Made by a program: the position numbers and the translations under genes. Positions 41,568-43,157 of a stretch of 64,000 nt of DNA are shown here, one piece after another (position 1 is the stretch's first letter; each line of letters opens with the position of its first letter). A model generated the notes under the pieces. The model was not told the DNA's origin, did no database searches, and saw only the letters and a list, made by a program, of their open reading frames with translations. This DNA comes from Escherichia coli. GTDB taxonomy: Bacteria > Pseudomonadota > Gammaproteobacteria > Enterobacterales > Enterobacteriaceae. Location of the stretch: NCBI RefSeq assembly GCF_022846255.1, contig NZ_AP025682.1; one strand, given 5' to 3'.

Positions 41568-43157
41568 TTACATCACCAGACGGCGAATGTCAGACAGCGT
41601 GTTGTTAATGATGGTAATGAAACGGGCACCATCAGCACCGTCGATCACGCGGTGGTCGAAGGAGAGAGAAATCGGCAGCATCAGACGCGGCACGAACTCT
41701 TTACCATTCCACACCGGCTCCATCGCGGACTTGGAAACGCCGAGGATAGCCACTTCCGGCGCGTTCACAATCGGCGCGAAGTGGGTAGTCCCCAGGCCGC
41801 CGATGCTGGAGATGGTGAAGCAACCGCCCTGCATTTCGCCCGCAGTCAGCTTACCGTCACGCGCTTTCTTAGAAATAGTCATCAGCTCGCGAGACAGCTC
41901 GATGATGCCTTTCTTGTTGACGTCTTTGAATACCGGAACAACCAGACCGTTCGGGGTATCCACCGCCACACCGATGTTGATGTATTTCTTCAGGGTCAGA
42001 CGCTGACCGTCTTCCGACAACGAACTGTTGAAGCGAGGCATCTGCTCAAGAGCTGCAGCAACGGCTTTCATGATGAAGACAACTGGGGTTATCTTCACAT
42101 CCAGCTTACGTTTCGCCGCTTCTTCGTTCTGCTGTTTACGGAACGCTTCCAGCTCGGTGATATCGGTTTTGTCGAAGTGGGTAACATGCGGGATCATCAC
42201 CCAGTTACGGCTCAGGTTCGCACCAGAGATTTTCTGGATACGGCCCAGTTCCACTTCTTCGATTTCACCAAACTTGCTGAAGTCCACCTTCGGCCACGGC
42301 AGCATACCTGGGATACCGCCGCCAGTCGCCGCCGGAGCCGCTTCTGCACGTTTGATAGCTTCTTTCACGTAAGCCTGAACGTCTTCGCGCAGGATACGAC
42401 CTTTACGGCCAGTGCCCTTCACTTTCGCCAGGTTAACGCCAAATTCGCGTGCCAGACGGCGGATCAGCGGAGTCGCGTGAACGTAAGCGTCGTTTTCAGC
42501 AAATTCAGATTTGCCTTCGGCTTTCGCAGCCGGAGCTGCTGCTGGAGCTTCAGCTTTTGCTGCCGGAGCCGGCGCTGCCGCTTCCTGTTTCGCAGGAGCT
42601 GCCGCAGGCGCTGCGCCTTCAACTTCGAAGATCATAATCAGCGAGCCAGTTTTCACTTTATCGCCAACGTTGACTTTCAGTTCCTTCACGACGCCTGCAA
42701 ACGGAGCCGGAACTTCCATAGACGCTTTATCGCCTTCTACGGTGATCAGCGACTGTTCAGCTTCAACTTTATCGCCAACTTTCACCAGGATTTCGGTCAC
42801 TTCAACTTCGTCGCTGCCGATATCCGGAACGTTAACGTCTTTTGCCGCTGCAGCCGCTGGAGCTGCTGCCGGAGCGGCTTCTTTCTTCTCTTCTGCCTGA
42901 GCAGGTGCAGCGTCTGCTGCACCGTCGGCGGAATCGAAAATCATAATCAGTGCGCCGGTCTGGGTTTTATCGCCAACAGAGACTTTGATCTCTTTAACGA
43001 TACCCGCCTGCGGAGACGGAACTTCCATAGAGGCTTTGTCGCCTTCTACGGTGATCAGCGACTGTTCGGCTTCAACTTTGTCGCCCACTTTGACCAGGAT
43101 CTCGGTGATTTCAACTTCATCAGCCCCGATGTCCGGTACTTTGATTTCGATAGCCAT
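41568..43157 (-). CDS. aceF: Dihydrolipoyllysine-residue acetyltransferase (E2 of pyruvate dehydrogenase), two-lipoyl-domain form
   Basis: ORF 41568..43157 (529 aa) [47 protein letters not shown]; two lipoyl domains, Ala/Pro linkers, E3-binding domain, catalytic domain with DHRVIDGA. Confidence 0.9.

What the first reader, a model, noticed from the sequence alone, without database searches (positions are those of the whole stretch)
42500..43157. aceF encodes two lipoyl domains (529 aa) instead of the canonical three
The E2p ORF (41568..43157, minus strand) is 529 codons. Its N-terminal region contains only two lipoyl domains (two copies of ...[13 protein letters not shown]...), then Ala/Pro-rich linkers, the E3-binding domain ([24 protein letters not shown]...) and the catalytic core. 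As I recall, E. coli K-12 AceF is 630 aa with three near-identical tandem lipoyl domains. This sequence therefore lacks one ~101-aa (~303-bp) unit in frame, with a hybrid junction (...[18 protein letters not shown]...). That pattern fits homologous recombination between the tandem repeats, or collapse of the repeats during short-read assembly.
Basis: partly seen in the sequence, partly recalled or inferred. Interest (0 to 1): 0.55.

Follow-up and report, generated by a model that had tools for sequence, protein, structure and literature searches.

The report
Two-lipoyl-domain aceF deletion allele
This E. coli pyruvate dehydrogenase E2 gene has lost exactly one of its three repeated lipoyl-domain units in frame, and this rare natural allele, already present in public genomes, has arisen repeatedly and should leave the enzyme working.

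Summary
The ORF at 41568..43157 (-) encodes a 529-aa AceF with two lipoyl domains, an E3-binding domain and the catalytic core. It equals K-12 AceF (630 aa) minus residues 156-256 (303 nt), with no other amino-acid change. The second domain is a clean lip2(N)/lip3(C) hybrid. A single crossover in a 26-nt identity tract (window 42724..42749) of a three-domain allele (strain 2012C-4502) reproduces the window sequence with 0 mismatches.

The allele is not new: the identical protein (WP_032220595.1) occurs on 182 public contigs, including chromosome-scale assemblies. It is rare. Three of 5,426 complete E. coli genomes carry this form, and about 11 carry any shortened form. It is also polyphyletic: 13 nucleotide alleles sit on different backgrounds, and one is identical in its flanks to three-domain ATCC 11775. 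Reciprocal four-domain products (731 aa) also exist.

Best reading: unequal homologous recombination or replication slippage between the tandem lipoyl repeats. Assembly collapse cannot be excluded for this particular assembly without reads. It is unlikely, because lip2 and lip3 are only about 85% identical and share exact tracts of just 20-30 nt. Published engineering work shows that complexes with fewer lipoyl domains are active. Low interest; already known in kind.

The parts
41568..43157 (-). aceF CDS, 529 aa: E2p dihydrolipoyllysine-residue acetyltransferase with two lipoyl domains
   Evidence: ORF list. Pfam architecture. Exact match to RefSeq WP_032220595.1 / P0001.
42939..43148 (-). lipoyl domain 1 (residues 4-73, lipoyl-lysine in EGDKASM), identical to K-12 lip1
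   Evidence: Pfam Biotin_lipoyl, E=1e-21. No amino-acid difference from K-12.
42840..42938 (-). Ala/Pro-rich linker 1 (residues 74-106)
   Evidence: Translation. Identical to the K-12 linker.
42630..42839 (-). hybrid lipoyl domain (residues 107-176): the N-terminal part equals K-12 lip2 and the C-terminal part equals K-12 lip3; the lipoylation motif is intact
   Evidence: Pfam Biotin_lipoyl, E=1.4e-22. Alignment to PDB 7b9k E2p: identical to residues 101-155, then to 257-292. Nucleotide diagnostics.
42724..42749 (-). most likely crossover tract: 26 nt identical between lip2 and lip3 of the best-matching parent allele, encoding part of …[10 protein letters not shown]…. The reference-independent bound is 42693..42749.
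   Evidence: The crossover scan over a 3-lip allele (strain 2012C-4502) gives 0 mismatches for x=408-434. Diagnostic sites are shown.
42483..42629 (-). long Ala/Pro linker (residues 177-225) with short internal 33-nt and 12-nt repeats
   Evidence: TRF rows 42515-42595 and 42591-42614. Translation.
42375..42482 (-). peripheral-subunit (E3/E1) binding domain, residues 226-261
   Evidence: Pfam E3_binding, E=6e-16.
41574..42266 (-). catalytic acetyltransferase core (residues 298-528, includes the DHRVIDG motif)
   Evidence: Pfam 2-oxoacid_dh, E=2e-80. Translation.
43172..45835 (-). aceE (E1p, 887 aa), intact, immediately upstream in the operon
   Evidence: ORF list. Annotation of syntenic loci.
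39936..41360 (-). lpd (E3, 474 aa from MSTEIKTQ…), intact, downstream
   Evidence: ORF list. Annotation of syntenic loci.
45996..46760 (-). pdhR repressor (254 aa), which completes the pdhR-aceE-aceF-lpd operon
   Evidence: ORF list. Annotation of syntenic loci.

Best explanation
This is a genuine natural deletion allele of E. coli aceF. Misaligned pairing of the tandem lipoyl repeats lip2 and lip3 removed exactly one 303-nt unit. The pairing could have been unequal RecA-type exchange between sister chromosomes or slipped-strand replication. The exchange fell within a roughly 26-nt identical tract encoding …[10 protein letters not shown]…. It fused the first 49 residues of the lip2 domain (residues 107-155 of the protein) to the last 21 residues of the lip3 domain (residues 156-176). 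The product is an in-frame E2p chain with two lipoylatable domains instead of three, that is 48 rather than 72 per 24-mer core. Its linkers, E1/E3-binding domain and catalytic core are unchanged. The pyruvate dehydrogenase complex should assemble and work, with at most a modest cost in growth efficiency.

Shown here: the anatomy, the crossover position, and the occurrence and polyphyly of the allele in public genomes. Inferred: the molecular route (recombination versus slippage) and the phenotype.
For: - The deletion is exactly 303 nt, in frame, with no other amino-acid change relative to K-12.
- All lip2-versus-lip3 diagnostic bases switch once, between gene nt 407 and 465.
- One crossover at nt 408-434 in the three-domain allele of strain 2012C-4502 regenerates window nt 300-640 with 0 mismatches.
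- The crossover lies in the region holding the longest in-register exact lip2/lip3 tracts.
- The identical 529-aa protein (WP_032220595.1) is on 182 contigs in 434 collection blocks. These include the complete genomes C2, C4 and CP099020.1, and 2.9-5.3 Mb contigs. Complete genome VTB97379v has the same hybrid structure with one substitution (A189V).
- Thirteen different nucleotide alleles encode it, with different junction haplotypes and two different gene contexts upstream of pdhR.
- Flank distances show polyphyly. Two-domain L011 has 0 differences in 5,320 nt from three-domain ATCC 11775, and the window differs by at least 42 from every other allele.
- Reciprocal duplication products exist. 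P0026 (731 aa) is lip1-lip2-[lip3N/lip2C]-lip3.
- Function: published work says one lipoyl domain suffices for activity and that the domains act redundantly (Guest et al. 1985, as cited in PMC8421416 and PMC5013485; 2-lip and 1-lip constructs described in PMC6270654). A hybrid lipoyl domain folds and has been studied by NMR (PMC6270654).
Against: No reads, PCR or coverage data are available for the source strain, so authenticity in this particular assembly rests on analogy with other genomes. None of the assemblies examined is the window's own lineage: the best flank identity is 99.1-99.2% and there are at least 42 differences in 5,320 nt. RecA-dependent exchange and RecA-independent slippage cannot be told apart from sequence. 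No activity or fitness measurement exists for this natural allele. The title of Dave et al. 1995 (cited in PMC11754459) states that lowering lipoyl-domain content reduces growth rate and yield, so 'neutral' is not assured.
Confidence: 0.85

Rival explanations
1. Assembly artefact: the strain really has three lipoyl domains and the assembler took a shortcut through sequence shared by lip2 and lip3, dropping one unit.
For: A graph shortcut would give exactly the same clean single-switch sequence, so the sequence alone cannot exclude it. Several contigs that carry the allele are short-read-scale (260-350 kb). One three-domain allele (GF3-3) has a 53-nt exact lip2/lip3 tract.
Against: lip2 and lip3 are only about 85% identical, and in six of the seven three-domain alleles examined the exact in-register tracts are 20-30 nt. 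That is shorter than usual final assembler k-mers and far shorter than reads. The same structure appears in complete genomes and 2.9-5.3 Mb contigs from several unrelated backgrounds. The window is contiguous for 64 kb across the repeat.
Confidence: 0.1
2. The two-domain allele was not formed in this lineage. It was imported by homologous recombination from another E. coli that already carried it.
For: The locus is mosaic. The window's aceF parts are nearly identical to B2-type alleles (0-1 differences from 2012C-4502 or ATCC 11775 in lip1 or the 3' part), while its aceE differs by 24-32 nt from every reference.
Against: None of the 12 other two-domain alleles shares the window's full haplotype (13 distinct alleles). 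The nearest two-domain allele (L011, 43 differences) is no closer than the nearest three-domain allele (2012C-4502, 42 differences). The window junction is fully explained by a de novo crossover in a 2012C-like three-domain allele. Either way the ultimate origin is the same deletion mechanism.
Confidence: 0.04
3. Two lipoyl domains is the ancestral state here, and three-domain alleles arose by duplication.
For: Many other bacteria have one or two lipoyl domains per E2p (PMC10849603, PMC6270654).
Against: Three domains (630 aa) is the state in 99.8% of complete E. coli genomes, and also in E. marmotae and Shigella sonnei. The window's second domain is a precise lip2N/lip3C chimera of the two K-12 domains, which is the signature of a derived deletion. 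Two-domain alleles nest within three-domain backgrounds.
Confidence: 0.01

Closest known systems
E. coli K-12 AceF (b0115, NP_414657.1; 630 aa, three lipoyl domains; structure PDB 7b9k)
   Same: Every residue is identical outside the deletion. The operon is the same (pdhR-aceE-aceF-lpd), as are the linkers, the peripheral-subunit binding domain and the catalytic core.
   Different: Residues 156-256 are missing (the C-terminal part of lip2, linker 2 and the N-terminal part of lip3), leaving two lipoyl domains.
Engineered E. coli E2p with two or one lipoyl domains (pGS110 and pGS156 constructs; Guest et al. 1985, J Mol Biol 185:743, as described in PMC6270654 and cited in PMC8421416 and PMC5013485)
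   Same: In-frame removal of whole repeat units that leaves a hybrid lipoyl domain. Those complexes assemble and are catalytically active, and the domains act redundantly.
   Different: The window allele is a natural chromosomal variant, not a plasmid construct. I could not read the 1985 paper, so I could not check whether its junction is identical to this one.
RefSeq non-redundant protein WP_032220595.1 (E. coli strains C2 and C4; identical protein on 182 public contigs)
   Same: 100% identical protein with the same lip2N/lip3C hybrid.
   Different: The nucleotide alleles and chromosomal backgrounds differ: 13 alleles, 40-86 flank differences between many pairs, and different junction haplotypes.
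Other natural copy-number variants of the AceF lipoyl repeat
   Same: All are products of misaligned exchange within the same repeat array. They include 528/530-aa forms (linker1/linker2 junction), a 527-aa form (lip1N/lip2C) and 731-733-aa four-domain forms in E. coli. Four-domain forms also occur in Salmonella (723-730 aa) and Citrobacter (731 aa).
   Different: The crossover positions or the direction (duplication rather than deletion) differ. P0026 (731 aa) is the exact reciprocal of the window's form.
AceF domain loss in Serratia symbiotica endosymbionts (PMC5013485)
   Same: Natural loss of one or two lipoyl domains from a three-domain enterobacterial AceF, interpreted as tolerated because one domain suffices.
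   Different: There it accompanies genome reduction in a symbiont. Here it occurs in free-living or commensal E. coli whose neighbouring genes are intact.

Membership tests
E2p dihydrolipoyllysine-residue acetyltransferase (AceF) of the pyruvate dehydrogenase complex | At least one N-terminal lipoyl domain with the lipoyl-lysine in a DKA motif | tested here: met
   Two Biotin_lipoyl hits (E=1e-21 and 1.4e-22). Both contain [10 protein letters not shown].
E2p dihydrolipoyllysine-residue acetyltransferase (AceF) of the pyruvate dehydrogenase complex | Peripheral-subunit (E3/E1) binding domain between Ala/Pro linkers | tested here: met
   Pfam E3_binding at residues 226-261, E=6e-16.
E2p dihydrolipoyllysine-residue acetyltransferase (AceF) of the pyruvate dehydrogenase complex | C-terminal 2-oxoacid dehydrogenase acyltransferase core with the catalytic DHRxxDG motif | tested here: met
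   Pfam 2-oxoacid_dh at residues 298-528, E=2e-80. [10 protein letters not shown] is present.
E2p dihydrolipoyllysine-residue acetyltransferase (AceF) of the pyruvate dehydrogenase complex | Located in the pdhR-aceE-aceF-lpd operon | tested here: met
   The ORFs for aceE, lpd and pdhR flank it on the same strand. It is syntenic with annotated E. coli records.
Canonical E. coli AceF architecture (three lipoyl domains, 630 aa) | Three tandem lipoyl domains | tested here: not met
   There are two domains and 529 aa. The 630-aa form is found in about 5,413 of 5,424 complete genomes.
Deletion allele from misaligned exchange between tandem repeats | Loss of exactly one repeat period, in frame, with a single switch of paralogue-diagnostic sites | tested here: met
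   The loss is 303 nt. Sites are lip2-type up to nt 407 and lip3-type from nt 465.
Deletion allele from misaligned exchange between tandem repeats | The junction lies in a tract of identity between the repeats, and a plausible parent allele reproduces the product | tested here: met
   0 mismatches for a crossover at nt 408-434 in the 2012C-4502 allele. The tract is among the longest exact lip2/lip3 runs.
Deletion allele from misaligned exchange between tandem repeats | The reciprocal duplication product exists in the population | tested here: met
   P0026, 731 aa, is lip1-lip2-[lip3N/lip2C]-lip3.
Deletion allele from misaligned exchange between tandem repeats | Physical confirmation (reads or PCR) in the source strain | not testable with these tools
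   No reads or strain are available. Support comes only from other assemblies.
Assembly collapse of a tandem repeat | The repeat copies share exact sequence at least as long as the assembler's k-mer or read overlap | tested here: inconclusive
   Exact in-register lip2/lip3 tracts are 20-30 nt in six of seven three-domain alleles and 53 nt in one (GF3-3). Overall identity is about 85%. The assembler and the true parent allele are unknown.
Functional two-lipoyl PDH complex | Assembles and catalyses pyruvate oxidation | not testable with these tools
   Inferred from engineered 2-lip and 1-lip complexes (PMC6270654; Guest 1985 as cited in PMC8421416 and PMC5013485). Not measured for this allele.

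The most novel reading that the evidence does not exclude
The number of lipoyl domains in E. coli AceF is a recurrently mutating copy-number locus (2, 3 or 4 units) held at three by stabilising selection. The two-domain allele, which has arisen many times and persists in some lineages (several from cattle and poultry), could be conditionally advantageous. Possible settings are lipoate limitation or particular gut niches. If so, natural isolates would offer a direct population-genetic handle on the old question of why E. coli keeps three lipoyl domains.
Probability: 0.12. Interest if true: 0.5.

Novelty: already known. Interest (0 to 1): 0.22.

Why it matters
Mostly as a caution and a small natural-history point. 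A 529-aa AceF in E. coli is neither a broken gene nor necessarily an assembly error. PGAP even flags one such in-frame form as a pseudogene. It is a rare natural allele (about 0.2% of complete genomes carry some shortened form) that arises again and again at a recombination-prone repeat. Two- and four-domain variants keep arising yet stay rare. That pattern is consistent with selection maintaining three domains, as laboratory work from the 1980s and 1990s suggested, and it offers ready-made natural strains for testing this.

Tried and rejected
- Tandem Repeats Finder did not report the roughly 300-nt lipoyl repeat in the window. The remaining lip1/hybrid pair is only about 77% identical. Only short Ala/Pro linker repeats were listed.
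- The apparent 94-95% identity of the window to most E. coli suggested a non-coli Escherichia. I rejected this: the low value comes from the aligner running through the paralogous repeat, and the flanks are 98-99.2% identical to E. coli.
- I looked for the window's own lineage among 5,426 complete genomes and 10 contigs carrying the exact protein. None matched; the best had at least 42 differences in 5,320 nt.
- An exact-match scan of the GTDB species-representative genomes with the 91-nt junction found nothing.
- Literature searches for a description of natural two-lipoyl E. coli aceF alleles, or for the accession numbers of the complete genomes, found nothing. This covers open-access text only.
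- The long + strand ORFs over aceF (41523..43295, 42511..42900) were considered and dismissed as antisense shadow ORFs of a highly expressed, Ala-rich gene.
- I judged structure prediction of the hybrid domain unnecessary. Both halves are identical to solved E. coli lipoyl domains.

Full report
**What is there**

The minus-strand ORF at 41568..43157 encodes 529 aa. Pfam finds two Biotin_lipoyl domains (residues 4-73 and 107-176), an E3_binding domain (226-261) and the 2-oxoacid_dh catalytic domain (298-528). The gene sits between intact aceE (43172..45835) and lpd (39936..41360), with pdhR upstream. This is the standard pdhR-aceE-aceF-lpd operon seen in annotated E. coli records. The window is E. 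coli: its flanks are 98-99.2% identical to complete E. coli chromosomes. The 94-95% identity that most genomes show over aceF itself arises because the aligner is forced through paralogous repeats.

**Comparison with the reference**

The window gene is exactly 303 nt shorter. Removing residues 156-256 from K-12 AceF gives the window protein with no other amino-acid difference.

The second domain is a chimera. Against the solved E. coli E2p (PDB 7b9k), it is identical to lip2 through …EVPAPFAG and to lip3 from VVKELKV… onward. At nucleotide level every lip2-versus-lip3 diagnostic site is lip2-type up to gene nt 407 and lip3-type from nt 465 (0-based). There is therefore one switch, somewhere in window 42693..42749.

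I simulated every possible single crossover in seven three-domain alleles. The allele of strain 2012C-4502 reproduces window gene nt 300-640 with zero mismatches when the crossover falls at nt 408-434, which is window 42724..42749. That tract encodes part of the conserved …[10 protein letters not shown]… segment. The segment spanning nt 408-464, which contains it, holds the longest in-register exact lip2/lip3 matches: 20-30 nt in most alleles and 53 nt in one. Overall lip2/lip3 DNA identity is about 85%, and lip1/lip2 about 77%. The repeats are therefore not 'near-identical' at DNA level, which matters for the artefact question.

**Is the allele real in nature?**

Yes. The identical 529-aa protein is RefSeq WP_032220595.1, annotated in complete genomes C2 and C4, both from cattle. 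Complete genome VTB97379v (chicken) has the same structure with one substitution, A189V. In the large protein collection the exact sequence occurs on 182 contigs spread over 434 blocks. These include contigs of 2.9, 4.6, 4.7, 5.1 and 5.3 Mb. Contigs of that size are chromosome-scale and, by inference, come from long reads, for which a 303-nt unit is trivial to span.

Among 5,426 complete RefSeq E. coli genomes the allele is rare. Three carry this lip2/lip3 form, and about eleven carry any non-canonical form. The other forms I examined are:
- 530 aa (FDAARGOS_1283) and 528 aa (DSM 103263), with junctions in linker 1/linker 2.
- 527 aa, a lip1N/lip2C hybrid, read in strain 01_3327. PGAP labels it a pseudogene although the ORF is intact. 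Strain 03_3013 gave the same hit profile but I did not inspect it.
- 566 aa, with an out-of-register fusion, read in strain 447. Strains 439, 446 and 463 gave matching hit profiles and I did not inspect them.

**One origin or many?**

Many. The window plus twelve other loci encoding the 529-aa form (eleven with the identical protein, and VTB97379v with A189V) comprise thirteen different nucleotide alleles. Their junction-region haplotypes differ, which implies crossovers at about nt 396-407, 408-428 or 435-464 depending on the allele. They also occur in two gene contexts upstream of pdhR: aroP-ampE, or a T6SS Hcp-nuclease/immunity array.

I compared 5,320 nt of non-repeat flank (aceE, the aceF 3' part, lpd and lip1) across the alleles:
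- Two-domain L011 has 0 differences from three-domain ATCC 11775.
- L014 and L016 (529 aa) have 0 differences from strain 447 (566-aa form).
- L008 and L017 are within 4-6 differences of DSM 103263 (528-aa form).
- The window is at least 42 differences from every allele. Its nearest three-domain allele (42) is as close as its nearest two-domain allele (43).

Two-domain alleles are thus scattered among three-domain backgrounds.

**Reciprocal products**

A homology search also returned four-domain AceF proteins. P0026 (731 aa, E. coli) has the order lip1, lip2, [lip3N/lip2C hybrid], lip3. This is exactly the reciprocal of the window's deletion. P0016 (733 aa) duplicates the lip1/lip2 unit. Salmonella (723-730 aa, including 4.5-4.7 Mb contigs) and Citrobacter (731 aa) also have four-domain forms. 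No complete E. coli genome had four units (at most 3 places per genome). Copy number therefore changes in both directions, but three is overwhelmingly the norm.

**Mechanism (inferred)**

The anatomy fits misaligned exchange between tandem repeats. Established knowledge allows either RecA-dependent unequal sister exchange, for which about 25 nt of identity is near the minimal efficient tract, or RecA-independent replication slippage, which is efficient for closely spaced direct repeats. Sequence alone cannot separate the two.

**Function (inferred from the literature)**

- The three lipoyl domains act redundantly, and one suffices for activity (Guest et al. 1985, as cited in PMC8421416 and PMC5013485).
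- Two-domain and one-domain complexes, including hybrid domains, were built and characterised (PMC6270654).
- Lowering the domain content reduced growth rate and yield, according to the title of Dave et al. 1995 (cited in PMC11754459).
- Serratia symbiotica shows natural loss of AceF lipoyl domains (PMC5013485).

I therefore expect an active complex with 48 rather than 72 lipoyl arms and at most a modest fitness cost. That would fit the allele's recurrent origin and low frequency.

**Artefact question**

A de Bruijn-graph shortcut would give the same sequence, and no reads are available, so collapse cannot be excluded for this one assembly. Three points argue against it. The shared exact tracts are short (20-30 nt) and overall identity is about 85%. 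The window is contiguous for 64 kb through the repeat. The same structure occurs in chromosome-scale assemblies on independent backgrounds. I put collapse at roughly 10%.

**Novelty and interest**

The enzyme, the domain-number variant and its biochemical consequences are known, and the exact protein is already in RefSeq. I found no open-access paper describing the natural polymorphism in E. coli, so the population pattern may be undocumented. That pattern is recurrent two- and four-domain alleles with three domains maintained. It is still a modest extension of old work. The finding is ordinary and scores low.

Noticed in passing
window 41361..41567 (aceF-lpd intergenic): The spacer is 207 nt here and 324 nt in K-12. 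About 150 nt of the K-12 sequence upstream of lpd is replaced by an unrelated stretch of about 30 nt. Both forms occur among E. coli genomes, independently of lipoyl-domain number.
   Followed up: partly
window 37913..39694 (+), yacH / DUF3300: The 593-aa protein has a His/Asp-rich run and tandem Gln/Arg-rich modules (…ASPEQRQAAREKMQTNPQNQQ…). Its length varies widely between strains (553 to 619 aa in the annotated loci seen), and this region aligns at only 88-95% identity with gaps.
   Followed up: no
L004 3169-4869 (strain 447; strains 439, 446 and 463 gave matching hit profiles): A 566-aa AceF in which lip2 is fused out of register, at a VGDKV motif, to the middle of lip3 (…KVNVGDKV|[13 protein letters not shown]…). 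This gives a domain-and-a-half of uncertain fold. Its flanks are identical (0/5,320 nt) to two contigs carrying the 529-aa form.
   Followed up: partly
L005 3149-4732 (strain 01_3327; 03_3013 gave the same hit profile): RefSeq/PGAP annotates aceF as a pseudogene 'missing N-terminus'. The sequence has an intact 527-aa ORF starting [11 protein letters not shown]…, a lip1N/lip2C two-domain form, so this is probably an annotation artefact.
   Followed up: partly
P0026, P0016, P0043, P0044, P0057 (proteins): Four-lipoyl-domain AceF variants (723-735 aa) occur in E. coli, Salmonella enterica and Citrobacter assemblies. P0026 is the exact reciprocal product of the window's deletion.
   Followed up: partly
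window 42515..42614 (linker 3 of aceF); P0060: The Ala/Pro linker contains short 33-nt and 12-nt tandem repeats. A 654-aa E. coli AceF (P0060) carries an expansion of the [12 protein letters not shown] unit, so the linkers are also length-polymorphic.
   Followed up: no
window 41523..43295 (+): A 590-aa ORF antisense to the whole of aceF, and a 757-aa one antisense to aceE (43313..45586). I judged them shadow ORFs of strongly codon-biased genes rather than genes.
   Followed up: no
window 45838..45951 (+), 39775..39817 (-), 57225..57301 (-), 57705..57774 (-), 63421..63510 (-): Rfam gathering-score matches to the sRNA/element families tp2 (aceE-pdhR spacer), ES036, naRNA4, STnc40 and PssrA.
   Followed up: no
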